NCBI GenBank assembly: GCA_041661665.1
Contig: JBAZTW010000007.1
Coordinates: 961 to 64,960, forward strand
Reading direction: 5' to 3'
Source: Phycisphaerae bacterium
Lineage (GTDB): Bacteria; Planctomycetota; Phycisphaerae; Sedimentisphaerales; UBA12454
Length of the DNA: 64,000 nt
In this document: one piece after another, positions 2,988 to 19,657 of the stretch
Layout of the letters: each line of letters starts with the position of its first letter
How positions within the stretch are numbered: position 1 is the first letter of the stretch
Position numbers and translations under genes: made by a program
The notes under the pieces: generated by a model
The model's input: the letters and a program-made list of their open reading frames with translations, nothing else
The model's database searches: none
Told to the model about the DNA's origin: nothing

Positions 2988-3060
2988 TCCTCTATTTTAA
3001 ACCAAAAACCGCAAAAAAGTCAAGCGATTATGCTGTTTTTATCATATAACCAAATGTCAA

Positions 3061-3942
3061 TTAAAGCATTTCGTTGCAGAGGTTTGCTATCGCGACATAA
3101 TCAACCGCGCTAAGTTCTTCGGGTCTGTGGTGCGGCTCGACGAATGCGCGTTTGAAAATATCGTCCCAGTGATGAATGTTCGCCAGTTTGTCCTCGGCAA
3201 ACTTCACACAGGCTCGAAGCATTTTCCGCCGATGCCCCATAAACAGATTTACCACCTGTTTGAAAATTTCAACATTATGAATCTGCGCAACTTTTTTCTC
3301 ATCCCTGTCGAATCGAACAATCGCAGAATCGATTTGCGGCGCCGGCCAAAAAACGCTCGGCGGCAATTTTCGCAAAATCCGGCAATGCCCCATCGCTGTC
3401 AAAATTATACTAAGGATTCCATAATCATCGCTGCCGGGCTGCGCGGCCATTCTTTGAGCGACTTCCTTCTGCACCGTTACCGTCATCGCATCGGCAACAA
3501 CATCGCCCGTAAGCAAATTAGCCATTACGCTTGAGGCGATGTTATACGGCAGATTTGCAACGAGGAGGAATTTGCCGTCGAATTCCTGTCTTGCCGCGCG
3601 GAGTTTTGCCATAACCTCGTGATTGATAGTATTTTTATTTTCGAGTGCATCGGCGTTGACAAGTTCAAAATTTTTCTCGCCTGCAAACATCCCTGCCGTT
3701 ACTTTCGCCAGGTTGTCATCAAATTCGACAGCGATTACTTTGCCTGCTCTTTTAATGAGTTCGCCGGTAAGCGAGCCTGTGCCTGTGCCGACTTCCAGAA
3801 CGATATCGTTCTGATTTATATGGGCATTTGTGAGCAAAAACTGCATAAGATTCAGGTCGATGAGGAAATTCTGGCCAAGCCGATGGTTGGGTTCAACTCC
3901 CATTGAGGTAAGTATTTTTTGTATGTCGGTTTTTGTCTGCAT
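3061..3942 (-). CDS. rsmA: 16S rRNA (adenine1518/1519-N6)-dimethyltransferase RsmA/KsgA
   Basis: N-terminus LGQNFLIDLNL, SAM motif VLEVGTGTGSLT, NLPYNI motif; 293 aa. Confidence 0.9.
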   Translation of the reverse strand: MQTKTDIQKILTSMGVEPNHRLGQNFLIDLNLMQFLLTNAHINQNDIVLEVGTGTGSLTGELIKRAGKVIAVEFDDNLAKVTAGMFAGEKNFELVNADALENKNTINHEVMAKLRAARQEFDGKFLLVANLPYNIASSVMANLLTGDVVADAMTVTVQKEVAQRMAAQPGSDDYGILSIILTAMGHCRILRKLPPSVFWPAPQIDSAIVRFDRDEKKVAQIHNVEIFKQVVNLFMGHRRKMLRACVKFAEDKLANIHHWDDIFKRAFVEPHHRPEELSAVDYVAIANLCNEML

Positions 3943-4013
3943 TGTTTGGTTTTTAATGGATTAAAATACCGTTTTAAGCCTAATGTGAAATGGTGTGGAT
4001 TTCAAACAAAAAA

Positions 4014-4039
4014 AGGCCTGTCGAAACAGACCTTTTTTT
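4014..4039. terminator. Bidirectional rho-independent terminator-like hairpin
   Basis: AGGCCTG-TCGAAA-CAGACCT is flanked by A7 (4008-4014) and T7 (4033-4039). The single C/A mismatch becomes a G.U pair on the minus-strand RNA, so it is stronger for a leftward transcript. Confidence 0.55.
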
Positions 4040-4441
4040 AAAGCATAGAAACCTCCGCCTGTGCCGATGAAAGGCTATTTAAAGAACCCAGTATTGTCAA
4101 AGTGGGTAGTCGGCTTTTTACCGTCCGAATGTCCTGTCGAGCAGGCTTGTCCGAACCGGCAGGTTCCGACTTCCCTGAATAAGGGTTATAGATTCTTCAA
4201 ATATTTTCCTTCCTGTCGAACACCGCAGGGGAAACCTTGCTATCCTATTATATCGAAAACCAACGGCTATTTCAATGAATTTTTTCAGTTAATATCGCCA
4301 GGCGATTCATAAATACAGTTGCTCTGGACTTTTATGTTTATATTTGATATAATGCTATTGTATATATAAATGCGGCAAGGCTCTTCAAAAATCGGGTCTT
4401 GTTTCTTATTTAGATATTAGAATTTAGTATTTTCTACTGTC

Positions 4442-6661: not shown

Positions 6662-7108
6662 TTATTTTTTTGTTTGAGCTTGCTTAACTAAACGGGACAA
6701 GGCTCCCTCACACCTAAATGTCTCAAGTTTTTGAATATCCACCAGAGCATCAGTCACTTGAGAAGACATACTTGAATTAGAAGGATAAAGATTTCTATAA
6801 GTTTTAGCTTCCCTTAGAGCATAATAGCAAAAATCATTCTTTGGGAATTTAGAATTTTTGAGACCAAGCAATTCGCTGTCAATTCCTTCCTCCAAAAAAC
6901 TAACCGCATTATCCGATTCGCCAAGACGCAGCTTGCTGGCCAAAACCAGTCGCCAGTTCAAAGTTTCCGCATCTTGCATTGTTAATAGTGAAAATACATG
7001 TTTGTAATATAAATATGATGAACCCAAAAAACCAACAACTCCCCCTAAAATAAATACTGCTACAATTATTATTAACCTCTTTGCCCGCATCGTTAACTCC
7101 TTTATCAC
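6662..7108 (-). CDS. Hypothetical membrane-anchored protein
   Basis: Single N-terminal TM helix (LIIIVAVFILGGVVGFLGSSYLYY). It lies in the same orientation as pdxB and the downstream secreted protein, with 5-22-nt gaps. Confidence 0.5.
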   Translation of the reverse strand: MIKELTMRAKRLIIIVAVFILGGVVGFLGSSYLYYKHVFSLLTMQDAETLNWRLVLASKLRLGESDNAVSFLEEGIDSELLGLKNSKFPKNDFCYYALREAKTYRNLYPSNSSMSSQVTDALVDIQKLETFRCEGALSRLVKQAQTKK

Positions 7109-8452: not shown

Positions 8453-10078
8453 ATGGCACAAACCAGATTCGCACCATCACCAACCGGCTATCTCCACGTC
8501 GGAGGGGCGAGAATCGCTCTGTTCGACCTGATATGGGCGAGAAAAACGGGCGGAAAATTCACCCTCCGAATCGAAGATACCGACCAGACCCGAAACAGTC
8601 CCACAGCGGCTGAGCAGGTTATGGCGGATTTGAAGTGGCTCGGTCTGCAATGGGACTTCGGCCCCAAAGTCGGCGGGCCTGCGGAGCCATACTATCAATC
8701 GCAGCGAAGAGATATTTACGACAAATACATCAACCTGCTCATCGAACAGGGCAAGGCATATTACTGTTTCGACACTTCGGAAGAATTGGAGGCGATGCGG
8801 AAAAAAGCAACAGCGGAGAAGAAAAATTTTCTCTACCTGCGGCCGGAGAAATTCCCAACAGTTGCGGATGTCGAAAAAGCACGCAGCGAAGGCAGGCCGG
8901 TTGTTGTGCGATTCTGTATGACCAACGATGAGATTGTCATCAACGAAATTATACGAGGCGAAGTTAAATTCGCAGGCAGCGACCTCAGCGATTTTATCAT
9001 ACAAAAAAGCGACGGCTTTCCGACTTATCATTTTGCATGTGTTGTCGATGATGAACTGATGGGCGTTGACTGCGTAATCAGAGGGCAGGAACATCTGATG
9101 AACACGCCAGGCCACATTATGCTGCAAAAAGCTCTCGGCTTCAGAACGCCGATTTATGCGCATCTGCCTGTAACGATGAATCAATCGGGCGGAAAAATGT
9201 CAAAACGCGACCGCGCCAAAGTTTTGAAGGAAGCGATAAAGGCAAAACCCCAGCTTGATTTGGAAAAATTAGCTTCTGTCGGCGGAATTTTAAAAACTGA
9301 TATTGAAAGTTTTCTCAAAGGCGACAGCACGCCTGATACTCCCGCGGTGAACGCGATGGCGGAATTTCTCGGCATCGAACTGCCGGAGGTTAATGTTGTT
9401 GATTTCTTTAAAAGCGGCTATCTGCCGGAGGCTCTGATAAATTTCATCGCCCTTTTGGGTTACAATCCCGGATTTGATAAGGAAATTTTAACTATTGATG
9501 AGCTTATCGAAAGTTTCGACCCGGCTCGATTCAATAAGACAAACAGCCTGTTTGACCGTAAGAAACTGCTTGCGTTCAATACCGAACATATAAAACTTTT
9601 GAGCGAAGACAAACTCTTAAGCAGGTATAAGGATTTTCTTAAAGGAACAAATTCAATCGCCGCAAACGCTGACGATAAATTACTTTTGAGGATTTTGAAA
9701 GCTTCAGCAGGCGCAAGAACGCTTGCGGAAATTGAGCATAAGAGCAGATTTATTTTTACCCCAGGCGACAAAATCGCTTATGACCAGAAGGATGTCGAAA
9801 AAGTTCTTTTGAAAAACAATGGCGAAGGTTTGGCGATGCTGGCCGAATTGAAAAATCATTTTGCCAAACTTGAAGTGATAAGCGAGCAGGCGATAGAGAC
9901 AATGCTTCGCGGACTCGCTGAAGCAAAACAGGTTGGTCTTGGTAAAGTTGCTCAGCCTTTGCGAGTCGCAATAAGCGGCACAACTATTTCCCTGCCGATT
10001 TTTGAATCAATTGACATACTTGGAATAAAAGAAACATTAAAAAGAATTGACGGAACTATTCTTAAATTTAGTTTGTAG
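8453..10078 (+). CDS. gltX: Glutamyl-tRNA synthetase
   Basis: RFAPSPTGYLHVGGAR (HIGH region) and KMSKR motifs; 541 aa. Confidence 0.92.
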   Translation: MAQTRFAPSPTGYLHVGGARIALFDLIWARKTGGKFTLRIEDTDQTRNSPTAAEQVMADLKWLGLQWDFGPKVGGPAEPYYQSQRRDIYDKYINLLIEQGKAYYCFDTSEELEAMRKKATAEKKNFLYLRPEKFPTVADVEKARSEGRPVVVRFCMTNDEIVINEIIRGEVKFAGSDLSDFIIQKSDGFPTYHFACVVDDELMGVDCVIRGQEHLMNTPGHIMLQKALGFRTPIYAHLPVTMNQSGGKMSKRDRAKVLKEAIKAKPQLDLEKLASVGGILKTDIESFLKGDSTPDTPAVNAMAEFLGIELPEVNVVDFFKSGYLPEALINFIALLGYNPGFDKEILTIDELIESFDPARFNKTNSLFDRKKLLAFNTEHIKLLSEDKLLSRYKDFLKGTNSIAANADDKLLLRILKASAGARTLAEIEHKSRFIFTPGDKIAYDQKDVEKVLLKNNGEGLAMLAELKNHFAKLEVISEQAIETMLRGLAEAKQVGLGKVAQPLRVAISGTTISLPIFESIDILGIKETLKRIDGTILKFSL

Positions 10079-10127
10079 GGTGGACAGCTTGCCTGCCCTG
10101 AGCTTCGTCGAAGGGGCTGTCCACGCG
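10075..10127. repeat. Nested hairpin words overlapping the gltX stop codon
   Basis: In GTAGGGTGGACAGC...GCTGTCCACGCG, the stem GTGGACAGC/GCTGTCCAC carries the word CCTGAGCTTCGTCGAAGGG in its loop. The TAG inside TGTAGGG (10076-10078) is the gltX stop. Confidence 0.8.
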
Positions 10128-10159
10128 ATTTTATTTTTGATATTAATAAGGAGTACGAT

Positions 10160-11062
10160 ATGTCTTTACTGGTAACCGGTTCGATAGGGATTGATACGGT
10201 AGTAACGCCGTTCGGCAAGAGCGAAAACTGCATCGGCGGCTCGGCGGTTTATTTCAGTATGGCCGCAAGTTTCTTTACTCCTGTACGATTCGTCGGCGTT
10301 ATCGGAGATGACTGCCCATTCGATTTGGCGAAGGTTTTCGCAGGCAGAAACGTCGATTTGGCTGGCCTGGAAGTTCGTCGCGGCAGCAAGACGTTCCGCT
10401 GGAAAGGCTCCTATCAGGGCGATATGAGCCAGGCGATTACCGATTGTCTGGAACTTAATGTTTTGTCGGAACATCCGCCTGTTGTGCCGGAGCAATTCAG
10501 AGACAGCGAATTTGTCTTCCTGGCAAATACGCATCCGACGCTGCAGATTCAGCTTTTGGAACAGTTGAAAAGTCCCAAATTTGTCGTCGCTGATACGATG
10601 AATTGCTGGATTGACAGGCAGACAGATGAATTAAAAAGACTGTTGAGTAAAATTAATGTTCTTATTCTTAATGAGGGTGAGGCGAAAATGCTCACCAGGA
10701 ACGATAACCTGGCGATTGCCGCTGATGAGCTTCGCAAGCTGGGGCCTAAATTTGTGGTTATCAAAAAAGGAGCCGATGGCTCAATGCTCGTTGGCGAAAA
10801 TGAATTTTTTATGCTGCCGGGCTTTCCCTCCAGGGAAGTAAAAGACCCGACCGGCGCGGGCGATTCCTTTGCAGGGGCTTTTATGGGCTATTTAGCCTCA
10901 GTCGGCAAGACCGACGCGAAACTTATGCGAACTGCGATTGCTTACGGAACGGTAACCGCTTCGCTGGTGATTGAAGGGTTTTCAATGTCGTCAATCGCTG
11001 CTATAAGCAAGACTGTCATAGATGCCAGACTTGCGCAGCTTAGAAAAATGACAGAATTTTAA
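10160..11062 (+). CDS. PfkB-family carbohydrate/nucleoside kinase
   Basis: C-terminal DPTGAGDSFAGAF motif typical of the ribokinase/PfkB family. N-terminal GSIGIDT. Confidence 0.8.
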   Translation: MSLLVTGSIGIDTVVTPFGKSENCIGGSAVYFSMAASFFTPVRFVGVIGDDCPFDLAKVFAGRNVDLAGLEVRRGSKTFRWKGSYQGDMSQAITDCLELNVLSEHPPVVPEQFRDSEFVFLANTHPTLQIQLLEQLKSPKFVVADTMNCWIDRQTDELKRLLSKINVLILNEGEAKMLTRNDNLAIAADELRKLGPKFVVIKKGADGSMLVGENEFFMLPGFPSREVKDPTGAGDSFAGAFMGYLASVGKTDAKLMRTAIAYGTVTASLVIEGFSMSSIAAISKTVIDARLAQLRKMTEF

Positions 11063-11092
11063 AAAAGTAATCAGAGCCGCGAAGAATTTATA

Positions 11093-11120
11093 TTTCTTTG
11101 TGCCTTTGTGCCTTTGTGTC
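11093..11120 (+). repeat. CCTTTGTG word run directly upstream of thpR
   Basis: TTTCTTTGTGCCTTTGTGCCTTTGTGTC. Related runs in the same orientation lie at 631-652, 1271-1304, 49005-49040 and 60181-60200. Confidence 0.8.
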
Positions 11121-11130
11121 TGATTGTTTT

Positions 11131-11700
11131 ATGCGATTATTCATTGCCATTGATATTGATGATGCCGTCAAAGCCGCTATTGTAAAATTGCAGCAGCGGA
11201 TGAAGCAAAGCCTGCGGAACGGTAACGGCCTCAAGTGGGTTGAACCAGAGCAGATGCACCTTACGCTGAAATTTTTGGGCGAAGTGAACGATGGCAGACT
11301 CGACGAAATTGCCGAAACAATAAATATAGCCTGTTTGGAAAAAAGGGCATTTGAATTTGAGCTTTCCGCTGTTGGAACTTTCGGCAGACCATCAAAAGTC
11401 TTATGGCTCGGCAGTGAAAAGCAAAGCGGCGAACTCCTCGCCCTTGTCGATTCGGTCGAACTGGCTCTGCAGGAACTTGGATTTGAAAAGGAAAATCGGC
11501 CTTTCAGTGCGCATTTGACTTTGGCAAGGGTTAAAGATAACTGCATTGAAAAAAATCTGCGGCGAGTAGTGAACGAGAATCAGAAAGTGGAAATACCGAT
11601 GGTTTTGGTTGGTTCGGTTTGTCTTTATAAAAGCCAGTTGACATTAACCGGCCCAGTCTATACCCTGTTGAGAAAAATAGAACTAAAAAAGGATTTTTGA
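11131..11700 (+). CDS. thpR: RNA 2',3'-cyclic phosphodiesterase (2H phosphoesterase, ThpR/LigT)
   Basis: MRLFIAIDI start and two H-x-T-x motifs ([15 protein letters not shown]). The longest ORF starts at a TTG (11098) inside the repeat, so ATG 11131 is preferred. Confidence 0.85.
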
Positions 11701-11713
11701 GAGTGATTTACTT

Positions 11714-12787
11714 ATGTTAAAGACAGCAAAAACGAAAAAAGCGGCAGTTGAAAAACCAGAAAAAACCGTAAAAACCGAAAAAGCAGGTGTAAAGACCGAC
11801 GGCGCACTTGAGCGGGCAATCGCTCAAATCGAAAAGCAGTATGGTGCCGGCTCGATTATGCAGATGGACCAGAGCAAATACGCCAAAATCGAAGGCACTC
11901 CGACCGGTTCGCTCTCGTTAGACATCGCTCTTGGCGGTTGCGGCGTTCCCAGAGGCAGGGTTATCGAATTTTTCGGCCCCGAATCCAGCGGAAAAACAAC
12001 CCTCGCTCTGCACGTCATCGCAAACGCACAGAAAAAAGGCGGGGTTGCGGCATTTATAGATGCAGAACACGCCCTGGACACAACCTGGGCGAAAAAACTC
12101 GGCGTTGATGTCAGCGGCCTTCTCGTCAGCCAGCCCGACACAGGCGAACAGGCTCTCGATATCGCGGAAATGCTGATAAAGTCAAACGCCGTCGATGTGA
12201 TTGTTATCGATTCAGTCGCCGCTCTCATACCTGCCGCTGAACTGGCAGGTGAAATGGGGCAGTCTCATATGGGGCTTCAGGCAAGACTTATGAGCCAGGC
12301 AATGAGAAAACTCACCGGCGTTATAAACAAAAGCAAGACCAGTCTCATTTTTATCAATCAAATAAGAATGAAAATCGGCGTTATGTTCGGAAACCCTGAA
12401 ACAACGACCGGCGGAAACGCTTTGAAATTTTACAGCTCTATCAGATTGGATATCAGAAGAATTTCCACAATTAAGGAAGGCACCGACGCGATCGGAAACA
12501 GAGTAAGGGCAAGAGTCGTGAAGAATAAAATCGCCCCGCCTTTCCGTGAAGCTGAGTTCGATATTATGTTCAACGGCGGGATAAGCTACGAAGGCGATTT
12601 AATTGATTTGGGAACAACCCATAATGTCGTTACTAAAAGCGGCGCTTGGCTTCTCTATGGCGATACTAAATTAGGTCAGGGCAGAGAAAACGCCAAAAAG
12701 TTCCTGATTGAAAATCCGAAGTTGACGGAAGAAATAAAAGAAAAAATCCTCCTCGCCGTCGGCGTAAAAGAGGATGCCAAAAAATAA
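11714..12787 (+). CDS. recA: Recombinase RecA
   Basis: [12 protein letters not shown] Walker [45 protein letters not shown]. Confidence 0.97.
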
Positions 12788-12800
12788 TTTTCAAAATGTT

Positions 12801-13140
12801 TAGCCCCCACACCTGTGGTGGGGGTTATTTCGTGGTTAGGGTTAGCCCTGCCATCACTATGGCAGGGTCCGTGGTTAGCCCCGGCCACCTGTCCTGAGCT
12901 TGTCGAAGGAATACTTTGCCGGGGTTCAGAGCCCAAGCGATAGCGCAGGGTGTTATTTAACCCCCAGTTCTACTGGGGGTCGTAGTCAGAGCCGCGACAG
13001 TAATGGAGCGGTCAGTTTTATATAATTTTTTTTCTCTGTGTCTCTGCCCGTCGCGGCGTAGTTTTGTAGGGTGGACAGCTTGCTGTCCACGCGGTTGTTT
13101 TTTTTAATCTGTGAAATCCGCGTAATCCGCGGTTAAAATT
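12801..13140. repeat. Cluster of hairpin words between recA and the R-M cassette
   Basis: Contains TAGCCCCCACACCTGTGGTGGGGGTTA, CACTATGGCAGGG, CCTGTCCTGAGCTTGTCGAAGGA and CAGAGCCCAAGCGATAGCGCAGGG. Also AACCCCCAGTTCTACTGGGGGT, CAGAGCCGCGACAG, TTCTCTGTGTCTCTG, GTAGGGTGGACAGCTTGCTGTCCACGCGG and AATCCGCGGTTA. Confidence 0.85.
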
Positions 13141-13142
13141 AT

Positions 13143-13183
13143 GTCTCTGTGGTGAAAAGTTAAATGTCAAATTCCGCTGAAAA
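13143..13183 (+). repeat. Orphan duplicate of the alaS translation-start region (left direct repeat of the R-M cassette)
   Basis: GTCTCTGTGGTGAAAAGTTAAATGTCAAATTCCGCTGAAA matches 15223-15263 at 38 of 41 positions by manual alignment. The match includes ATG TCA AAT TCC GCT GAA (MSNSAE). Confidence 0.8.
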
Positions 13184-13258
13184 AGTTGTAGGGTGGACTC
13201 TTGACCCATGCGGTTATCTGTTAACATCGACCTGTTTGAATAAGTAGAGAAATAAAAA

Positions 13259-14041
13259 ATGAACTATTGGACAGATTTAAGCATAACGTATGCGAGCCAA
13301 AGAAGTTATTTGGATGATCTTTTTAGGGTGTATCCGACAGTACCGGAAGGGATTCGTGATGTTGATAATTCTTTGTGGAATGAAATTGAAACCGCATTTA
13401 ATGGCAAAAACGATATAGTATTATTGAAAAAATTGCTTAAACTTAAACTGTTTCCGATAAAAGATTCTTATGTTGCCTATCTAAGAAGAGATAAGCATGC
13501 ATTAGAACATAATCCTGCAACCGTTTCAAGGATATGTGGTCGTTTATATGAAATGGGGTTAAGTGAAATTTTCAAAAAGAGTTCTGAGGCAAAGGAAACA
13601 AACAGACAAATTGGCCCACTCTTTAAGAGATGGATTGAAAGCGGAGTATTGGGAGTTCCTATTTTACAGGAACGAGATTTTGTTTTAAATAACAGTAACG
13701 CTATATTGCGTGGCAGTGATAACCAGCTTGCTGATTTTGCTAAGCGGCATTTGTGTTACACAAGAAACAAGGGGCTTGATTTTATAGGTCGCTTTAATGG
13801 AAAATATGTTATAGGAGAATCGAAGTTTTTAACAGATTTCGGCGGCCATCAGAACGCACAGTTTAATGATGCCATAGAATTACTGAAATTAGAGGCGGTT
13901 GCCGCTATGAAGATTGCTATTCTTGATGGCGTACTTTATATAGGAGGCAAAAGCAAAATGCACAATTTTTTGAAAACTTGCCCTTCTGGATATAATATTT
14001 TAAGTGCGCTTGTATTAAGAGAATTTTTATATCAGCTTTAA
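13259..14041 (+). CDS. Probable type II restriction endonuclease (PD-(D/E)XK-like core)
   Basis: It lies 2 nt upstream of a DNA methyltransferase gene. Candidate catalytic core is GLDFIGRFNGKYVIGESKF (D-X12-E-S-K). It is AT-rich relative to recA and alaS. Specificity unknown. Confidence 0.6.
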   Translation: MNYWTDLSITYASQRSYLDDLFRVYPTVPEGIRDVDNSLWNEIETAFNGKNDIVLLKKLLKLKLFPIKDSYVAYLRRDKHALEHNPATVSRICGRLYEMGLSEIFKKSSEAKETNRQIGPLFKRWIESGVLGVPILQERDFVLNNSNAILRGSDNQLADFAKRHLCYTRNKGLDFIGRFNGKYVIGESKFLTDFGGHQNAQFNDAIELLKLEAVAAMKIAILDGVLYIGGKSKMHNFLKTCPSGYNILSALVLREFLYQL

Positions 14042-14043
14042 AT

Positions 14044-15204
14044 ATGTTTTTAGATTACGACAATAAAAAAACTGAACAGGAAATACTTGCTTTAAGAAGC
14101 AATGGCAGATTAAGTCTGCCTTTGGCAGATATTAAAGAAAAGAATTTATTGATGTTCGGCGATAATTTCGAGATTATGCAATGTCTGCTTTGGGATTTGA
14201 ATTTTGCAGGCAAAATAGATATGGTCTATATAGACCCGCCTTTTGCAACAAATAATATCTTCAGAGTAGGTCAGGAAAGAACTAATACAATCAGTTCGAG
14301 TTATTCTGATACCGAAGCATATTGCGATTTGTTGAAAGGGGCTGAATTTCTCGAATTTTTGCGAGAAAGAATTATTCTTATCAGGGAATTAATGTCTGAA
14401 AAAGCGTCCATATATTTGCATATCGATTACAAAATCGGTCATTATGTCAAAGTGATTATGGATGAGATATTCGGAGAAGGTAATTTTAGGGGTGATATAA
14501 CAAGAATAAAATGCAATCCTAAAAATTTTTCAAGAAAAGGATATGGAAATATAAAGGATTTAATCCTGTTTTATTCAAAAACAGATGACTTTATATGGAA
14601 CGAACCGAAAGAATCTATGACGGAAAGTGATGTTGAAAGGCTTTTCAAAAAAATTGATGAAAATGGCAAAAGATACACAACTATTCCTTTACACGCACCA
14701 GGCGAAACCGTTAATGGGGCTACAGGCCAAAGCTGGCGAGGAGTAAATCCGCCGCCCGGGCGACACTGGAGAAGTTCGCCACAAATACTTGAACAGCTCG
14801 ATAAAGATGGGCTTGTAGAATGGTCTTCTAACGGTGTCCCTCGCAAGAAAATATATGCCGATGAATGTGAAGCCAAAGGCAAAAAAGTTCAGGATATCTG
14901 GGAGTACAAAGACCCGCAGTACCCGGCTTATCCGACGGAAAAGAATATCGATATGATTGAGTTCCTCGTAAAAGCATCTTCAAATCCAAATGATACGATT
15001 ATGGATTGCTTTATGGGGTCTGGCACAACTCTTGTTGCGGCAAACAGACTTGGACGAAATTGGATTGGAATAGATAGCTCAGAAGAAGCATTGAAGATAG
15101 CTGAAAACCGTTTGAAGAAAGAAGAATCGGGTTTGTTCGTTGGAAAACCAGAATATCAAAAATTAAAATTGGAAATGTTAATGCCGTCTATAACGGCAAA
15201 ATAA
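14044..15204 (+). CDS. Beta-class N6-adenine/N4-cytosine DNA methyltransferase (Mod/COG2189-like)
   Basis: Motif IV VYIDPPFATN precedes motif I DCFMGSGTTLVAA (beta permutation). LHIDYKIGHYVKVIMDEIFGEGNF is the block typical of Mod-like adenine methylases, as I recall. Confidence 0.85.
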   Translation: MFLDYDNKKTEQEILALRSNGRLSLPLADIKEKNLLMFGDNFEIMQCLLWDLNFAGKIDMVYIDPPFATNNIFRVGQERTNTISSSYSDTEAYCDLLKGAEFLEFLRERIILIRELMSEKASIYLHIDYKIGHYVKVIMDEIFGEGNFRGDITRIKCNPKNFSRKGYGNIKDLILFYSKTDDFIWNEPKESMTESDVERLFKKIDENGKRYTTIPLHAPGETVNGATGQSWRGVNPPPGRHWRSSPQILEQLDKDGLVEWSSNGVPRKKIYADECEAKGKKVQDIWEYKDPQYPAYPTEKNIDMIEFLVKASSNPNDTIMDCFMGSGTTLVAANRLGRNWIGIDSSEEALKIAENRLKKEESGLFVGKPEYQKLKLEMLMPSITAK

Positions 15205-15215
15205 ACAGAAAAAAA

Positions 15216-15252
15216 TCTCTGTGTCTCTGTGGTGAAAAATTCGATGTCAAAT
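15216..15252 (+). promoter_or_regulatory. CTCTGTG-word / GGTGAA / N7 / ATGTCAAAT translation-start module (alaS copy)
   Basis: TCTCTGTGTCTCTGTGGTGAA-AAATTCG-ATGTCAAAT. It is identical apart from the 7-nt spacer to 17926-17962. GGTGA is complementary to the anti-SD region and is the only SD-like sequence. Confidence 0.6.
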
Positions 15253-17919
15253 TCCGCTGAAATTAGAAGTTCGTTTATAAAGTTTTTTGAGGACAAGGGT
15301 CATACCTTTGTGCCGTCCTCGCCGGTGATACCCCTCGGCGATGATACGCTCCTGTTCGCAAACGCCGGTATGAACCAATTTAAGGATGTTTTCCTCGGCA
15401 CAGGCAGCAGAAACTACACGCGCGCCGTCAACAGCCAAAAATGTATCCGCGCAGGCGGCAAACACAACGACCTCGAAGATGTAGGCACAGACACTTACCA
15501 CCACACCTTTTTTGAAATGCTCGGCAACTGGTCGTTTGGCGATTATTTTAAAGCAGAAGCAATCGAATGGGCATGGGAACTTTTAACGCGGGTCTGGAAA
15601 ATCGACGCAAGCCGACTGCACGTTACATATTTTCAGGGCGATTCACATGATGGCCTCGACCCTGACGATGAAGCGAAAAAATTCTGGAGCAAATACCTGC
15701 CCGAAGACAGAATCCACAAGGGCAACAAAAAAGATAACTTCTGGGAAATGGGCGAAACAGGCCCCTGCGGCCCCTGCAGCGAAATACATTACGATGGCAC
15801 GCCCGACAAATCAGGCGGAAAACTTGTCAACGCAGGCAGCCCCGATGTTATTGAAATTTGGAATCTGGTATTTATACAATTCAACCGCGATACCACCGGC
15901 AAACTAACTCCCCTGCCCGCAAACCACGTTGATACCGGTATGGGCTTGGAAAGAATCACGCGCGTTTTACATAATAAAACATCAAATTACGATACCGATG
16001 TTTTCGCCGCGATAATCGGCGCAACTGAAAAACTTACCGGCAAAAAATACACCGCTAAACTCGAAGACAAAACCGACATCGCGTTTCGCGTCATCGCCGA
16101 CCATTTGCGAACGCTCGTTTTTGCTATTACCGATGGTGGCGTTGTCAGCAACGAAGGCAGAGGTTATGTCCTGCGAAGAATTTTGCGCCGAGCCGCAAGG
16201 TTCGGCAGAACCCTCGGTATGCACGAACCGTTTATGTATAAACTTGTCGATGTCGTCGTCGAAACAATGGGACAGGCCTTCGGCGAATTAAAAGAAAGAA
16301 CCGAACTTGTAAAAACGGTTATAAAATCTGAAGAAGAAAGTTTCGGCAGAACTCTCGATAGAGGCCTTGAGATATTCGCCTCTGCCGCCGACAAAGCCGC
16401 CAAGCTCGGCATTATCAGCGGTGCGGATGCCTTTGAACTTTACGATACATTCGGCTTCCCGCTCGATTTAACCGCCCTGATGGCCAGAGAAAAAAATCTC
16501 AAAGTTGATACCGCCGGCTTTGAAGATTTAATGAATCAGCAAAGACAGCGGGCCAGAGCCGCGCAAAAAGCTGCCAGCTTCGCGGCATTTGTTACAGATG
16601 AAAAATTACCCGCCACAGATGATATGGCCAAATACGCGCAGGATAAAATAACAGCGAAAGTTTTAGGCTGGATTGACGAAAAGGGCTGGCACTCGCAGGG
16701 TAATATCACAAATGATGCCGCAATAGTTCTGGACAAGACCTGTTTCTACGCCGAGTCAGGCGGACAAACAGGCGACAGCGGCGCAATAATAACAGCAGAC
16801 GGAATTTTCGCAGTTGAAGCGACCGAAAAAATCGCCGACTGCATTATACACAAAGGTAAATTTAAAAAAGGAACTATCAAGGTCGGCGATGCCGTCGAAG
16901 CCATAGTTGACGCTGCAAGACGCGAAACCAAAAAAAATCACACCGCCACTCACCTGCTCCAATGGGCATTGCAGAAAGTCTGCGGCAGAAGTATCGCCCA
17001 GCAGGGCTCGCTTGTTTCTCCTGAATATCTGCGATTCGACTTCACTTCGCCAAAAGCCCTGACTGATGAACAGACAAAGGAAGTGGAAAAATTAGTTAAC
17101 GAAAAAATCTCACACTCCGTGCCTATTTGCTGTGCGACGCTGCCGATTGAAAAAGCGAAAAAGCTCGGCGCTATGGCGCTCTTCGGCGAAAAATACGGCA
17201 AAACCGTCCGCGTTATAGCCGTCGGTGCTGATAACGAAAATAATCTCGATGATGCCTTCAGCAAGGAATTCTGCGGCGGAACACACGTCGCAAACACCGG
17301 CGCAATAGGCGGTTTCAAAATCATAAAAGAAGAATCCGTCTCCGCAGGCGTTCGCAGAATCACCGCCCTGACCGGCAAAGGACTGAATGAGTACTATAAT
17401 AAGATGGGCGGTATTGTTGAAAACTTAGGTCAACTCCTGAAAGTCCCCGCTGACCAGATTTGCGAAAGAGTAAATAAAATCCTCGACGACAATAAAAATC
17501 TCGCCAAACAATTAAAGACCGCCTCTAAGCAAAGCGGTGCTGATGTAATGAGCAAAGCCAGGCAGCTTTTGGAAAGCTGCGAGAAAATAGGCACAAGTTC
17601 TGTTATTGTAAATGCCCTCGAATCCGCTACAATTGATGAGGCTCGCGAAGCGATTGATATGATAAAGGCAAAGGCAGGCTCCGCAGCAGTCGTCTTCGGA
17701 TTTGCCGAGGGCGATAAAGTTACCCTGCTTGCCGGCGTAAGCGATGACCTTATTAAGAAAGGCCTAAAGGCAGGCGATATCGTCAAGGAAATCGCACCCA
17801 TCGTTGGCGGCGGCGGAGGCGGAAAACCGCAAATGGCTCAGGCAGGCGGCAAAAATCCAAAGAATCTTCCGCAGGCCTTAACTCGTGCAATAGAATACAT
17901 TAAAGATAAAATAGTTTAA
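15244..17919 (+). CDS. alaS: Alanyl-tRNA synthetase
   Basis: MSNSAEIRSSFIKFFEDKGH, FANAGMNQFK, GNWSFGDYFK, editing-domain HTATHLL and CGGTHV motifs. Start at ATG 15244; the longest ORF starts at GTG 15229 inside the repeat. Confidence 0.95.
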   Translation: MSNSAEIRSSFIKFFEDKGHTFVPSSPVIPLGDDTLLFANAGMNQFKDVFLGTGSRNYTRAVNSQKCIRAGGKHNDLEDVGTDTYHHTFFEMLGNWSFGDYFKAEAIEWAWELLTRVWKIDASRLHVTYFQGDSHDGLDPDDEAKKFWSKYLPEDRIHKGNKKDNFWEMGETGPCGPCSEIHYDGTPDKSGGKLVNAGSPDVIEIWNLVFIQFNRDTTGKLTPLPANHVDTGMGLERITRVLHNKTSNYDTDVFAAIIGATEKLTGKKYTAKLEDKTDIAFRVIADHLRTLVFAITDGGVVSNEGRGYVLRRILRRAARFGRTLGMHEPFMYKLVDVVVETMGQAFGELKERTELVKTVIKSEEESFGRTLDRGLEIFASAADKAAKLGIISGADAFELYDTFGFPLDLTALMAREKNLKVDTAGFEDLMNQQRQRARAAQKAASFAAFVTDEKLPATDDMAKYAQDKITAKVLGWIDEKGWHSQGNITNDAAIVLDKTCFYAESGGQTGDSGAIITADGIFAVEATEKIADCIIHKGKFKKGTIKVGDAVEAIVDAARRETKKNHTATHLLQWALQKVCGRSIAQQGSLVSPEYLRFDFTSPKALTDEQTKEVEKLVNEKISHSVPICCATLPIEKAKKLGAMALFGEKYGKTVRVIAVGADNENNLDDAFSKEFCGGTHVANTGAIGGFKIIKEESVSAGVRRITALTGKGLNEYYNKMGGIVENLGQLLKVPADQICERVNKILDDNKNLAKQLKTASKQSGADVMSKARQLLESCEKIGTSSVIVNALESATIDEAREAIDMIKAKAGSAAVVFGFAEGDKVTLLAGVSDDLIKKGLKAGDIVKEIAPIVGGGGGGKPQMAQAGGKNPKNLPQALTRAIEYIKDKIV

Positions 17920-17925
17920 GTTTTT

Positions 17926-17962
17926 TCTCTGTGTCTCTGTGGTGAATTTTTTTATGTCAAAT
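17926..17962 (+). promoter_or_regulatory. CTCTGTG-word / GGTGAA / N7 / ATGTCAAAT translation-start module (mlaE copy)
   Basis: TCTCTGTGTCTCTGTGGTGAA-TTTTTTT-ATGTCAAAT, immediately after the alaS stop. Confidence 0.6.
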
Positions 17963-18790
17963 GGAAATGGTAAAACTTCGCTTCTCGCCAAATTTGGCGC
18001 ATCCGTTATTGAAACCGTATATCACAGCGGCCGTTTTGCTCGCTTCCAATGGTCAGCAATAACCGCTTCCTGCTCCGTCTGCCTAAAACCAGCTATGTAC
18101 CCCCTCATCTTAAACCAAATGCTCGCCATCGGCGTCCGCTCCGTCCCGGTCGTTGCAATAACTGGCGCGTTTGTGGGAATGGTGCTGGCGATACAGGCTT
18201 ACGACCAGCTTGCGGGGTTGGGAATCGAAGAACATTTGGGCGTGCTGATAAATTTGTCGGTTGTTAAGGAGCTTGGGCCGGTGCTGGCGGCAGTGATGCT
18301 TGCGGGTCGAGTCGGCGGAGCTTTGACGGCGGAACTCGGCACAATGAATGTTACCGAACAGATACTGGCGGTTCAGAGTATGGGAACTAATCCAATCCGG
18401 TATTTAGTCGCGCCGCGATGGATAGCCTGTCTGCTTCTTACGCCCGTTTTGATTATCTATGGCGATTTTCTTGGAATGCTCGGCGGGTATCTGATTAGTG
18501 TGCCATACCTCGGTATTAACAACGCGGCATATTGGAATTACAGCGCATCGGGCGTTGAGTTCTGGGATATATCAATAGGAATAATAAAGGGATTTTTCTT
18601 CGGTATCGCGATTGCGGGCGTAAGCTGCTATAAAGGCTTCCACTGCAAAGAAGGTGCGCAAGGCGTAGGCGAAGCCTGCACCGAAGCGTTTGTCGGAAGC
18701 TTTATTATTATTCTGGCAATCGATTTTGTTCTCGTCGTAGTCTCAAAGGCGATATATTCGTCGCTCTGGCCTTTGAGAATGCTGCTTTAA
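17954..18790 (+). CDS. mlaE: MlaE-family ABC transporter permease
   Basis: LGPVLAAVMLAGRVGGALTAELGTMNVTEQILAVQSMGTNPIRYLVAPR is the conserved MlaE/YrbE block. Multi-TM protein. Confidence 0.85.
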   Translation: MSNGNGKTSLLAKFGASVIETVYHSGRFARFQWSAITASCSVCLKPAMYPLILNQMLAIGVRSVPVVAITGAFVGMVLAIQAYDQLAGLGIEEHLGVLINLSVVKELGPVLAAVMLAGRVGGALTAELGTMNVTEQILAVQSMGTNPIRYLVAPRWIACLLLTPVLIIYGDFLGMLGGYLISVPYLGINNAAYWNYSASGVEFWDISIGIIKGFFFGIAIAGVSCYKGFHCKEGAQGVGEACTEAFVGSFIIILAIDFVLVVVSKAIYSSLWPLRMLL

Positions 18791-18832
18791 AAATGTATAA
18801 CCACAGATTACACAGATAACACGGATTAAAAA

Positions 18833-19657
18833 GTGGAAAAAAAAACATCAGCATCTGAAGAGATAATTGCTCTTAAGAATATCAACAAGAGCTTCGGCAG
18901 TAATGTCGTACTTGACGATATTTCGCTTTCTTTCGAGAAGGGCAAAACAACCGTAATCATCGGGCCAAGCGGCTGCGGCAAAACCGTCTTAATCAAACAT
19001 ATTATCGTTCTCCTCCGGCCCGATACGGGCAGAGTTTATTTTCACGATATGAGAATTGATAATATGCAGGAAAAGCAGCTCGATGCGATTCGCACAAGAA
19101 TGGGATTTTTGTTTCAGGGCGGTGCGCTTTTCGACAGTCTGAATGTTTTAGAAAATGTCATCTTTCCGGTCAAGCAGCACGTCAAAATTAAAAATACTGA
19201 AAAACTTCACGAGCTGGGCAGGACAAAATTAGCGATGGTCGGAATGGAAAGTTTTGTGAACGCATATCCCGCTAAACTTTCCGGCGGACAAAAAAAGAGG
19301 GTCGCTTTGGCAAGAGCGATAGCTATGAGTCCGGAAGTGATTTTGTATGATGAGCCTACGACGGGTCTTGACCCGATACGCTCGGATGTGATTAACGAAT
19401 TGATTATAAAATTGCAGAAGGAGCTTGGCATCACGAGCATTGTTGTTACGCACGATATGGCCAGCGCGTATAAAGTCGCTGACCGGATTATAATGCTGCA
19501 CAAGGGCAAAGTTGCCGCCGATGGCAACGCTGATTATATACGCAATCATTCTTCGCCCGTCGTTCAGCAGTTTATCAACGGCCAGGCCGACGATGACGAT
19601 TTAAAAGCCCTGCGGGCTTCAAGTTCTGATATTAAAATTTCGGATATTGAACAGTAG
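18833..19657 (+). CDS. mlaF: MlaF-like ABC transporter ATP-binding protein
   Basis: Walker A GPSGCGKT, signature LSGGQKKRVALARA, Walker B ILYDEPTTGLD. GTG start as given by the ORF track. Confidence 0.85.
   Translation: MEKKTSASEEIIALKNINKSFGSNVVLDDISLSFEKGKTTVIIGPSGCGKTVLIKHIIVLLRPDTGRVYFHDMRIDNMQEKQLDAIRTRMGFLFQGGALFDSLNVLENVIFPVKQHVKIKNTEKLHELGRTKLAMVGMESFVNAYPAKLSGGQKKRVALARAIAMSPEVILYDEPTTGLDPIRSDVINELIIKLQKELGITSIVVTHDMASAYKVADRIIMLHKGKVAADGNADYIRNHSSPVVQQFINGQADDDDLKALRASSSDIKISDIEQ

What the first reader, a model, noticed from the sequence alone, without database searches (positions are those of the whole stretch)
13143..15263. R-M cassette inserted at the 5' end of alaS, bracketed by a ~41-nt direct duplication of the alaS start
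The sequence GTCTCTGTGGTGAAAA.TT..ATGTCAAATTCCGCTGAAA occurs twice, at 13143-13183 and 15223-15263. The two copies match at 38 of 41 positions by manual alignment.

The right copy contains the real alaS start (ATG 15244, MSNSAE...). The left copy is a decapitated duplicate: ATG 13164 gives MSNSAEKVVGWTLDPCGYLLTSTCLNK*.

Between them lie only a degenerate GTAGGGTGG word and the AT-rich endonuclease-methyltransferase pair (13259-15204). This looks like a footprint of how the ~2-kb cassette entered the recA-alaS spacer. Possible routes are target duplication or recombination through the repeat module.

The cassette has no integrase or transposase, so the mechanism of R-M mobility here is not obvious.
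Basis: seen in the sequence. Interest (0 to 1): 0.6.

Follow-up and report, generated by a model that had tools for sequence, protein, structure and literature searches.

The report
R-M cassette with duplicated alaS start
A 2-kb restriction-modification gene pair was inserted at the start of the essential alaS gene of a Sedimentisphaerales bacterium, duplicating 41 bases of that start; this is a clear new example, in a new phylum, of the known but mechanistically unexplained "insertion with long target duplication".

Summary
TGTCTCTGTGGTGAAAA-N5-ATGTCAAATTCCGCTGAAA occurs at 13142-13182 and 15222-15262 (38/41). The two copies bracket a 2039-nt, 36% GC insert that holds only a Tsp45I-family endonuclease and an N4/N6 methyltransferase.

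Same-genus genomes have recA-96 nt-alaS with one copy of the leader and start, so an empty site exists. The structure meets every published criterion of "R-M insertion with long target duplication" (Nobusato 2000; Furuta 2010). I class it as a new member of a known kind, in Planctomycetota.

Three nuances:
- The left 17 nt of the repeat belong to a generic leader word found about 13 times in the genome. Only the 3' 24 nt are unique.
- The same cassette sits in the same spacer in two related lineages without the duplication, and it has been exchanged laterally (92-99% identical against about 87% for alaS). The repeat therefore records the event in this lineage, not every entry of the cassette.
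- The alaS start is hit repeatedly. An unrelated AccI-type R-M in another genus is bracketed by duplicated alaS starts (16 and 21 nt), and a third lineage keeps a decayed alaS-start remnant.

Across phyla, 9 of 68 Tsp45I-type cassettes carry 30-168-nt bracketing repeats (control 1 of 53). The mechanism remains inferred.

The parts
11714..12787 (+). recA, the upstream flank of the insertion site
   Evidence: PF00154 2.3e-133. recA->alaS adjacency is nearly universal in the order.
12806..13015 (.). Array of AGCCC...GGGT-type hairpin repeats, specific to this lineage's recA-alaS spacer and absent from the 96-nt G001 spacer
   Evidence: Read from the sequence. Not part of the cassette.
13064..13105 (+). 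Intact GTAGGGTGGAC hairpin followed by a T-run; terminator-like, probably ends recA transcription
   Evidence: Terminator-like site at 13071-13090 plus T-run. The element family has 91 copies in G000 and 126 in G001, and 11 or fewer elsewhere.
13105..13141 (+). Ancestral alaS leader (AATCTGTGAAATCCGCGTAATCCGCGGTTAAAATTA) with a sigma70-like GTGAAA-17-TAAAAT at 13111-13139. Present only upstream of the left repeat copy, so it was not duplicated.
   Evidence: Aligns with the G001 empty-site leader AATCAGTGAAATCCACGTAATCCGCGGTTAGAATTT. Promoter-like match; this is a consensus match only.
13142..13182 (+). Left copy of the 41-nt direct repeat: alaS 5'UTR (including the CTCTGTG word) plus ATG and the first 19 nt of alaS
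   Evidence: The native leader is shown by comparison with L245 (GTATGGTGATAATTAAGTGTCAAATTC) and G001.
13164..13247 (+). Decapitated alaS-start ORF (27 aa). Its stop lies 11 nt before the REase ATG, so it is a possible coupling or leader ORF.
   Evidence: The coupling function is inferred.
13183..15221 (+). Inserted DNA (2039 nt, GC about 0.36)
   Evidence: Bounded by the repeat. Absent from G001, L242-245, L246 and the P0121 contig. GC.
13186..13215 (+). Degenerate GTAGGGTGGAC element (stem broken, no T-run) at the left end of the insert
   Evidence: The element family is restricted to the G000/G001 clade.
13259..14041 (+). Type II restriction endonuclease, Tsp45I family, full length
   Evidence: PF06300 2.3e-115, residues 2-260 on model positions 1-260. 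4581 homologues at E<=1e-40.
14044..15204 (+). DNA methyltransferase (N6_N4_Mtase), the cognate partner
   Evidence: PF01555 4.1e-46. The R>M> order is conserved in 80 of 80 related loci.
15210..15238 (+). Complete CTCTGTG leader word (AAAAAAATCTCTGTGTCTCTGTGGTGAAAA) at the right junction. Its last 17 nt are the start of the right repeat copy.
   Evidence: The same word follows M in lineage B.
15222..15262 (+). Right copy of the 41-nt direct repeat; holds the functional alaS start
15244..17919 (+). alaS (alanyl-tRNA synthetase), intact, co-oriented with R and M
   Evidence: PF01411 3.7e-214, PF07973, PF02272.
17926..17962 (+). mlaE leader with the same CTCTGTG word + N7 + ATGTCAAAT; a third, partial look-alike that is ancestral at this position
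   Evidence: G001 has the same module at mlaE.

Best explanation
A promoterless, recombinase-free, roughly 2-kb type II R-M unit (Tsp45I-family REase followed by an N4/N6 MTase) was inserted into the 5' end of the alaS transcription unit in the lineage of this genome. It probably arrived from a close relative, because its left end carries a clade-specific GTAGGGTGG element.

During the insertion a 41-nt stretch of the target was copied to both sides of the insert. This stretch is the alaS 5'UTR, including a native CTCTGTG-type leader word, plus the ATG and the first 19 nt of coding sequence. This is the 'R-M insertion with long target duplication' described by Nobusato (2000) and Furuta (2010).

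The right copy keeps alaS intact with its own translation start. The left copy is a decapitated start that now opens a 27-codon ORF ending 11 nt before the REase ATG.

Shown here:
- the duplication;
- the empty site in relatives;
- the insert content;
- the absence of mobility genes;
- recurrence of long bracketing repeats in this cassette family.

Inferred:
- The event was a host repair or replication accident with no element-encoded enzyme. Two routes are possible: breaks on the two strands 41 nt apart that were filled in after capture of the foreign fragment, or a template switch that re-copied 41 nt.
- The arrangement survived because the duplication preserves an essential gene while placing the cassette behind a working promoter and translation start. 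R-M-alaS are then read as one unit, with the leader ORF coupling translation into R.
For: - Repeat: 38/41, with a unique 19/19 alaS part.
- Empty sites: G001 (= L242-244), L245, L246 and the closest RecA relative have recA-3 to 113 nt-alaS. G001's leader aligns with 13105-13182 and continues directly into alaS.
- Native left copy: L245's leader GTATGGTGATAATTAAGTGTCAAATTC shows that the window's left copy is native alaS leader with an 8-nt expansion.
- Insert content: only R and M, low GC, no terminal inverted repeats.
- Class criteria: the published criteria (R and M inside, insert under 20 kb, duplication over 30 bp, repeat single in the empty genome, no mobile-element genes) are quoted and are all met.
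- Family-wide survey: 9 of 68 Tsp45I-type R>M> cassettes from unrelated phyla, including Helicobacter pylori, are bracketed by 30-168-nt repeats of local sequence. The shifted pseudo-insert control gives 1 of 53. Lengths are variable and no ends are conserved.
- Repeat position: in 6 of those 9, the right copy lies at or just upstream of the start of a co-oriented downstream ORF.
- Independent events at alaS: in G006 an unrelated AccI-type R-M is bracketed by exact 16-nt and 21-nt duplications of that genome's own alaS start, and a 13-codon decapitated ORF overlaps the REase ATG by 8 nt.
- Tight abutment elsewhere: the same cassette starts 3 nt after the recA stop in lineage B and overlaps the release-factor stop in the 71% homologues.
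Against: - Lineages B and C carry the same core cassette in the same spacer without a left copy. Either they lost it, or the duplication is not tied to entry of the cassette as such.
- B's cassette is followed by the same CTCTGTG word as in the window. So the word may be cassette-borne rather than native, in which case the left copy's word would have to be a secondary copy.
- The left 17 nt of the repeat are a generic word.
- The three mismatches are clustered, which fits allelic difference (donor against recipient) as well as decay.
- The empty-site comparators are other species (83-87% nt identity), not strains of the same species. No same-species empty allele of the window's own lineage was found.
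- The promoter and coupling roles rest on consensus matches and spacing only. In most relatives alaS follows recA by 25-75 nt and is probably co-transcribed with it, so a dedicated alaS promoter is uncertain.
- No direct evidence for any molecular mechanism exists here or in the literature.
Confidence: 0.62

Rival explanations
1. Campbell-type integration of a circle. The cassette excised from a donor relative as a circle that carried one copy of the neighbouring alaS leader and start. It then integrated into the window's lineage by a single crossover within that 20-40-nt homology, which automatically produces direct repeats at both ends. On this reading the repeat acts as a 'portable homology' (like attP/attB) rather than being a target duplication made by repair synthesis.
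For: - The cassette has moved laterally among relatives and always lands in the recA-alaS spacer.
- The insert's left end carries a clade-specific GTAGGGTGG element, so the donor was a close relative.
- The three clustered mismatches between the copies could be differences between donor and recipient alleles.
- It would explain why the alaS start is hit repeatedly.
- Furuta et al. propose a cycle of excision and re-invasion through the flanking repeats.
Against: - Both copies share lineage-specific states (TCAAAT rather than TCAAGT, and the 8-nt TCTCTGTG expansion), so no donor or recipient hybrid structure is visible.
- 16-41 nt is at or below the usual minimum for efficient RecA recombination.
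- G006's cassette is unrelated, and its repeats are that genome's own sequence with 100% identity.
- In the 9 cross-phylum cases the repeats are different local sequences, which would require each cassette to have picked up local DNA first.
Confidence: 0.17
2. Secondary duplication. The cassette first sat in the spacer without any repeat, as in lineage B, with its own CTCTGTG word joined to the alaS leader. Later the block [cassette + word + alaS start] was tandemly duplicated, as in R-M amplification. Most of the first copy was then deleted, leaving the 41-nt left copy. On this reading the repeat is a scar of amplification and collapse, not of entry.
For: - B and C lack the left copy.
- B shares the cassette-adjacent CTCTGTG word.
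- The left edge of the left copy (TTATG|TCTCTG) and B's right junction (AAAAA|TATGG) map to the same TATG of the ancestral leader.
- Amplification of R-M units flanked by repeats is documented (cited).
Against: - It needs three events where one suffices.
- It does not explain the clean 16- and 21-nt duplications around an unrelated R-M in G006, or the 9 of 68 bracketed cassettes elsewhere.
- Lineage C's cassette ends at CAGAAAAAA without the word, which suggests the word is not part of the core cassette.
- L245's native leader already contains GTGATAATTAA, homologous to the GTGAAAAGTTAA of the left copy.
Confidence: 0.14
3. No duplication event. The two copies are independent instances of a portable leader or translation-start module that this genome places in front of many genes. 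The left one is merely an orphan module.
For: - The CTCTGTG word occurs about 13 times, usually 3-9 nt before a start codon.
Against: - The match continues 10 nt beyond ATGTCAAAT (TCCGCTGAAA) only in the two alaS-type copies.
- ATGTCAA(G/A)TTCC...GCTGAAAT is native alaS coding sequence in G001, B, C and L245.
- The mlaE module is ancestral at mlaE in G001.
- The left copy is contiguous with the ancestral alaS leader.
Confidence: 0.02

Closest known systems
R-M gene insertion with long target duplication (Nobusato et al. 2000, Gene 259:99; Furuta, Abe & Kobayashi 2010, NAR 38:2428, PMC2853133)
   Same: - R and M genes alone in a roughly 2-kb, low-GC insert.
- Direct repeats longer than 30 bp that correspond to a single copy in a genome lacking the insert.
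- No transposase, integrase or inverted repeats.
- Repeat length is variable between events.
- The published H. influenzae type II case is close in scale: 46-bp repeat, insert 32% GC against a 38% genome.
   Different: - Host phylum: Planctomycetota (Sedimentisphaerales) is not among the taxa listed in that survey.
- The duplicated segment spans the start codon of an essential gene.
- Its 5' third is a dispersed leader word, so it is not fully unique as in the published H. influenzae cases.
- The empty-site comparison is between species of one genus, not within a species.
- The same cassette also exists at the same locus without the duplication.
Genomic hot spots or defence islets between conserved core genes, filled by homologous exchange through the flanks
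   Same: - The recA-alaS spacer holds different cargo in different relatives: Tsp45I-type R-M (window, B, C), AccI-type R-M (G006), an EcoRV-like fragment plus C-protein-like HTH (G002), and unrelated genes (G010, G068, G076, G079, G246).
- B's recA 3' end is L245-like rather than G001-like, which suggests a crossover in recA.
   Different: Exchange through the flanks does not create a duplication of the target. Here and in G006 the junctions lie within a few nucleotides of the alaS ATG and are duplicated.
Transposon or IS insertion with target-site duplication
   Same: Direct repeats of target sequence at both ends of an insert.
   Different: - Transposon target duplications are short and of fixed length (typically 2-14 bp). 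Here the repeat is 41 nt, and 16-168 nt in related events.
- No terminal inverted repeats and no transposase.
Integrase-mediated islands with attL/attR repeats (for example tRNA-targeting R-M islands, Furuta 2010 Fig. 3d)
   Same: Direct repeats of tens of nucleotides flanking an R-M island at the end of a conserved gene.
   Different: - No integrase in or next to the insert.
- The target is the 5' end of a protein-coding gene, not a tRNA or tmRNA 3' end.
- No conserved core sequence among events.

Membership tests
R-M insertion with long target duplication (Furuta 2010 criteria) | Both an R gene and an M gene homologue lie inside the inserted sequence | tested here: met
   PF06300 Tsp45I (2.3e-115) and PF01555 N6_N4_Mtase (4.1e-46), both inside 13183-15221. 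The criterion is quoted.
R-M insertion with long target duplication (Furuta 2010 criteria) | Inserted sequence shorter than 20 kb | tested here: met
   2039 nt lie between the repeat copies.
R-M insertion with long target duplication (Furuta 2010 criteria) | Target duplication longer than 30 bp | tested here: met
   41 nt with 38 identical. Caveat: the 5' 17 nt are a dispersed word, and the unique part is 24 nt.
R-M insertion with long target duplication (Furuta 2010 criteria) | A related genome lacks the insert and has the repeated sequence once, with both flanks aligned | tested here: met
   G001 (= L242-244) has recA-96 nt-alaS. Its leader aligns with 13105-13182 and then with alaS. L245, L246 and the P0121 contig are also empty. 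The comparators are other species of the genus (83-87% nt).
R-M insertion with long target duplication (Furuta 2010 criteria) | No other mobile element or mobility gene accounts for the insertion | tested here: met
   The only ORFs in the insert are R and M. The neighbours are ligT, recA, alaS and mlaE. No terminal inverted repeats and no tRNA-like or Rfam match.
Tsp45I-family type II restriction endonucleases (Pfam PF06300) | Full-length match above the gathering threshold, with an adjacent cognate methyltransferase | tested here: met
   385 bits against a cut-off of 25, residues 2-260 on model positions 1-260. R>M> order in 80 of 80 related loci. The recognition sequence (GTSAC for Tsp45I, from general knowledge) and enzyme activity were not tested.
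Classical transposon or IS with target-site duplication | Transposase gene, or terminal inverted repeats with a short duplication of fixed length | tested here: not met
   No transposase. No inverted repeat at the insert ends. Repeat length varies from 16 to 168 nt among related events.
Integrase-mediated island (attL/attR) | Tyrosine or serine recombinase gene in or beside the island, with a conserved att core | tested here: not met
   No recombinase in 10000-19000. No conserved junction sequence across 11 events.

The most novel reading that the evidence does not exclude
Long target duplications at gene starts are not just scars. They are what allows promoterless, RBS-poor R-M cassettes to establish. 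By copying a resident gene's 5'UTR and start codon, the event hands the cassette a working promoter and translation start, through a short decapitated leader ORF that ends at the REase ATG. It also leaves the essential resident gene intact and locks the R-M into its transcription unit. In Sedimentisphaerales the alaS start would then be a recurrent, mechanistically or selectively preferred landing site. At least four independent events are seen: the window, two in G006, and the L248 remnant.
Probability: 0.25. Interest if true: 0.6.

Novelty: new member of a known kind. Interest (0 to 1): 0.42.

Why it matters
The mechanism of R-M mobility without a recombinase has been open since 2000. This locus gives an unusually well-resolved case, because the following forms are all available for comparison:
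- an occupied allele with a duplication;
- occupied alleles of the same cassette without a duplication;
- several empty alleles;
- an unrelated R-M inserted at the same nucleotide positions in another genus.

It extends the phenomenon to Planctomycetota. It shows that one cassette family (Tsp45I type) carries such duplications in about 13% of species sampled across phyla.

It also suggests a testable functional reason for the duplication: it may supply expression signals to the incoming cassette while sparing an essential gene. That could explain why such events are retained.

For genome annotation, it warns that short 'MSNSAE...' ORFs upstream of R-M genes are decapitated copies of the neighbouring gene.

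Tried and rejected
- **Chance or generic-word explanation.** Rejected. The 19-nt alaS part is unique to the two copies, although the 5' 17 nt are a dispersed word.
The mlaE look-alike is real. It is ancestral at mlaE in G001, and alaS's ATGTCAA is native to alaS. So it does not explain the alaS-specific part.
- **Repeat as a property of the cassette.** Rejected. B, C, the 71% homologues and four family-level Tsp45I-type cassettes at other loci have no bracketing repeat.
- **Search for more close copies.** The metagenome scan with M found only lineage B above 66% identity. The exact-RecA look-up found only the same strain.
- **Rfam.** Nothing in 12500-15500.
- **Restriction-site involvement.** No GTSAC site lies in or at the edges of the repeat by reading. 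G006's repeat contains GTTAAC, which is not an AccI site (GTMKAC, from general knowledge). This was not pursued.
- **Conserved insert termini or junction microhomology across 11 events.** None were found. B's left junction does show an imperfect match of about 10 nt (AGAAATA-R-AAA) between the recA end and the cassette 5'UTR.
- **Genome-wide scan for other repeat-bracketed AT-rich inserts.** This gave two further candidates, on C24 and C31. They were only partly followed up.
- **Closest RecA relatives (P0121, P0123).** Their DNA could not be fetched because the sample file was too large.

Full report
**1. The observation**

The repeat is real. The repeat finder reports one two-copy family of 41 nt at 13142-13182 and 15222-15262, with 38 of 41 positions identical. 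The three differences cluster in the 5 nt before the ATG.

The coding part ATGTCAAATTCCGCTGAAA is identical in both copies. It is found nowhere else in the window even with 3 mismatches allowed (0.05 expected). The right ATG (15244) opens an 891-aa alanyl-tRNA synthetase.

Between the copies lie:
- a degenerate GTAGGGTGGAC element;
- a full-length Tsp45I-family endonuclease (PF06300, 2.3e-115);
- an N6_N4 methyltransferase (PF01555, 4.1e-46).

GC is 0.31-0.39 in the cassette, against 0.44 for the genome. No integrase- or transposase-like ORF lies within 10000-19000.

One qualification applies. The first 17 nt of the repeat (TGTCTCTGTGGTGAAAA) belong to a dispersed leader word. The pattern (A/T)n-TCTCTGTG-TCTCTGTGGTGAAA is followed 3-9 nt later by a start codon. 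It occurs 13 times at up to 1 mismatch in the 2.3-Mb genome.

**2. Empty sites**

The window is contig C7 of a 2.3-Mb MAG. Its relatives are named Phycisphaerae, Sedimentisphaerales or Anaerohalosphaeraceae by their sources.

The order ligT-recA-alaS-mlaE is conserved through the family and order. In about 100 genomes where both genes were listed, alaS follows recA, mostly by 25-75 nt (spacers computed by hand from the listed coordinates).

Same-genus G001 has a 96-nt spacer. Its leader AATCAGTGAAATCCACGTAATCCGCGGTTAGAATTTTATGGTGTTAG aligns with window 13105-13163. It then runs directly into ATGTCAAGTTCCGCTGAAATACGAAG.

Further empty alleles:
- L245, about a 48-nt spacer;
- L246/L247, 3 nt;
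- the contig with the closest RecA (92%), 113 nt, for which no DNA was available.

L245's native leader GTATGGTGATAATTAAGTGTCAAATTC shows that the window's left copy, TTATG[TCTCTGTG]GTGAAAAGTTAAATGTCAAATTCC, is native alaS leader with an 8-nt expansion.

**3. What it is**

The structure meets every criterion that Furuta, Abe and Kobayashi used for 'R-M insertion with long target duplication':
- R and M inside the insert;
- an insert under 20 kb;
- a duplication over 30 bp;
- repeats that align with one copy in a genome lacking the insert;
- no other mobile element (PMC2853133).

That paper lists cases in Helicobacter, Haemophilus, Campylobacter, Neisseria, Microcystis and others. It states that the mechanism is unknown and suggests that double-strand breakage is involved.

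**4. A family-wide check**

A scan of species-representative genomes with the REase returned 80 loci at 69% identity or less, from many phyla. All have the R>M> order.

Of 68 loci with enough flank, 9 have direct repeats of 30-168 nt (91-100% identical) bracketing a 2.0-2.5-kb insert. One of these is in H. pylori. Same-length pseudo-inserts shifted into the left flank gave 1 of 53.

The repeats are different local sequences. Their lengths vary, and the insert ends share nothing. In 6 of the 9, the downstream copy lies at or just before the start of a co-oriented ORF. So this cassette family is prone to exactly this mode of insertion.

**5. Complications: the same cassette without the repeat**

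The exact REase occurs only in re-assemblies of the same strain, with the same structure (L066-68). Two other lineages carry the same core cassette in the same spacer.

*Lineage B (L070-73).* Its flanks are 96-97% identical to the empty G001, so this is a presence/absence pair within roughly one species.
- R starts 3 nt after the recA stop.
- 81 nt of spacer are replaced, and nothing is duplicated.
- M is followed by the same CTCTGTG word and then by G001's own TATGGTGTTAGATGTCAAG.
- B's last 20 nt of recA match L245 rather than G001, which suggests a crossover inside recA.

*Lineage C (L069).* It has recA-128 nt of hairpins-R-M-about 60 nt-alaS, with neither the word nor a repeat.

Between the window and B, most 100-nt windows of the cassette are 92-99% identical. 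A patch inside R (13577-13976) is only 46-77% identical. alaS averages about 87% and recA about 84%.

So the cassette has moved laterally among these species since they diverged. The 41-nt repeat belongs to the event in the window's lineage. Both copies share lineage-specific states: TCAAAT rather than TCAAGT, and the 8-nt expansion.

I could not decide whether the CTCTGTG word is native to the window's leader or was cassette-borne.
- If it is native, a one-step duplication explains the window, and B later acquired the cassette together with 18 nt of the right copy.
- If it was cassette-borne, the left copy's word would be secondary. This is the amplification-and-collapse rival.

Two observations favour a native word. 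C's cassette ends at CAGAAAAAA without the word, and L245's leader already has GTGATAATTAA.

**6. The alaS start is hit repeatedly**

In G006, another genus of the family, the recA-alaS spacer is 3.1 kb and 36% GC. It holds an unrelated pair: an AccI-family REase (PF09545, 2.7e-114) and an Eco57I-like N6 MTase.
- This pair is bracketed by an exact 16-nt repeat, GTGTCCTATGTTAACA, that contains G006's own alaS ATG.
- 220 nt further upstream lies a second exact copy (21 nt, CTATGTTAACAACAGAAATTA) on the far side of a block of hairpin repeats.
- That makes three alaS starts, which implies two successive insertions with duplication.

In L248 (RecA 90%) recA is followed by hairpins and then kdsA. 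The spacer keeps a decayed alaS 5' remnant. It matches at 24 of 32 positions with a local score of 29, against 15.5 +/- 2.2 for shuffles. None of 2000 shuffles reached that score.

G002's spacer holds an EcoRV-like REase fragment, a C-protein-like HTH and an unknown 259-aa ORF, with no repeat. Other enlarged spacers (G010, G068, G076, G079, G246) hold unrelated genes without repeats.

**7. How it probably works (inferred)**

The ancestral leader just upstream of the left copy contains GTGAAA-17-TAAAAT at 13111-13139. G001 has GTGAAA...TAGAAT at the same place. It is preceded by an intact GTAGGGTGG hairpin with a T-run.

If that is the alaS promoter, the duplicated 41 nt correspond roughly to the alaS 5'UTR plus six codons, and the promoter was not duplicated. 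R, M and alaS would then be read as one unit. A second promoter-like site lies inside the 3' end of M (15140-15169).

The positions of the REase start fit tight coupling to an upstream ORF:
- In the window, the decapitated 27-codon ORF stops 11 nt before the REase ATG.
- In G006, the 13-codon equivalent overlaps the REase ATG by 8 nt.
- In B, R starts 3 nt after recA.
- In the 71% homologues, R overlaps the release-factor stop.

The GTAGGGTGG element at the insert's left end has a broken stem and no T-run, as read-through would require. It belongs to a family expanded only in G000 (91 copies) and G001 (126), so the DNA came from this clade.

My reading is as follows. A repair or replication accident inserted a promoterless cassette, through staggered breaks filled in or through a template switch. 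The duplication let the essential alaS keep its start while giving the cassette expression signals. These steps are inference. They rest on consensus matches and spacing, and in most relatives alaS is probably co-transcribed with recA.

**8. Verdict**

- The locus is a new member of a known kind.

Its value lies in the set of alleles that can be compared, the extension to Planctomycetota, the repeated use of one gene start by unrelated R-M systems, and a testable functional rationale.

- The DNA of the two closest sister contigs could not be fetched.

Noticed in passing
L049 (G006:C17) 1323-1343, 1565-1580, 4212-4237; R 1606-2661, M 2654-4192: An unrelated AccI-family REase plus Eco57I-like MTase lies in the recA-alaS spacer of another genus. 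It is bracketed by exact 16-nt and 21-nt duplications of that genome's own alaS start, giving three alaS starts in all. A 13-codon decapitated ORF overlaps the REase ATG by 8 nt.
   Followed up: yes
L248 (JGI 3300062534 contig) about 1344-1375: A lineage with 90% RecA has recA-hairpin array-kdsA instead of alaS. The spacer keeps a decayed 32-nt remnant of the alaS 5' end (24/32; none of 2000 shuffles reached the score). This points to another rearrangement with a breakpoint in the first roughly 35 nt of alaS.
   Followed up: partly
G000 contig C24:15265-19845 (outside the window): A 1266-aa type IIG-like R-M fusion (NPPY motif; 15595-19395, minus strand) lies in a 4.5-kb low-GC block. The block is bracketed by repeated leader modules (70/73, 30/31 and 21/21 nt at slightly different offsets). 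This is a second R-M in the same genome flanked by long direct repeats.
   Followed up: partly
G000 contig C31:5366-5409 and 6909-6952 (outside the window): A perfect 44-nt direct repeat brackets a 1.5-kb, 37% GC insert with two membrane-protein ORFs (195 and 269 aa, minus strand). The same kind of long duplication therefore occurs around cargo that is not an R-M system.
   Followed up: partly
L048 (G002:C22), recA-alaS spacer (1884 nt, GC 0.34): The spacer holds a 103-aa N-terminal fragment of an EcoRV-like REase (PF09233, model positions 2-71 of 244), a 69-aa HTH_3 protein like an R-M controller, and a 259-aa ORF with no Pfam match. It looks like a decayed or replaced R-M system at the same hot spot.
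   Followed up: partly
window 13577-13976 (inside the REase gene): Between the window and lineage B the cassette is 92-99% identical, except for a central patch of the REase gene at 46-77%. Lineage C stays at 79-89% there. This suggests a mosaic or recombined segment within R.
   Followed up: no
window 12806-13015: An array of six AGCCC...GGGT-type hairpins, often separated by GTGGTTAG-like spacers, fills the recA-alaS spacer upstream of the alaS leader. It is absent from G001's 96-nt spacer. Similar arrays occur in G006, L069 and L248.
   Followed up: no
window 13064-13097, and genome-wide: GTAGGGTGG(G/A)C-loop-G(C/T)CCACGCGGTT(T)n hairpins look like intrinsic terminators. The family is expanded only in G000 (91 copies) and G001 (126), with 11 or fewer in 29 other relatives. 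Some copies have other hairpin words nested in the loop.
   Followed up: partly
window 15210-15238, 17926-17948; G000 genome-wide: A leader word, (A/T)n-TCTCTGTG-TCTCTGTGGTGAAA, sits 3-9 nt before the start codons of about a dozen unrelated genes. It is often preceded by other short tandem words such as TTCATTC..., GTTATCAG... and AATCCGCGT.... Its function is unknown; it could be an RBS substitute or a 5'UTR element.
   Followed up: partly
L155-L160 (JGI 3300035659 and others): The 71%-identical Tsp45I-type cassettes lie between a peptide-chain release factor gene and pepA. The REase start overlaps the release-factor stop by 4 or 17 nt, so here too the cassette rides as a passenger in a housekeeping operon, without bracketing repeats.
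   Followed up: partly
L246 (ENA ERZ27297441 contig) 9801-11047: In a relative with recA-3 nt-alaS, two DNA methyltransferase genes (MethyltransfD12, then N6_N4_Mtase) follow mlaE. This is another R-M-type insertion in the same conserved gene row.
   Followed up: no
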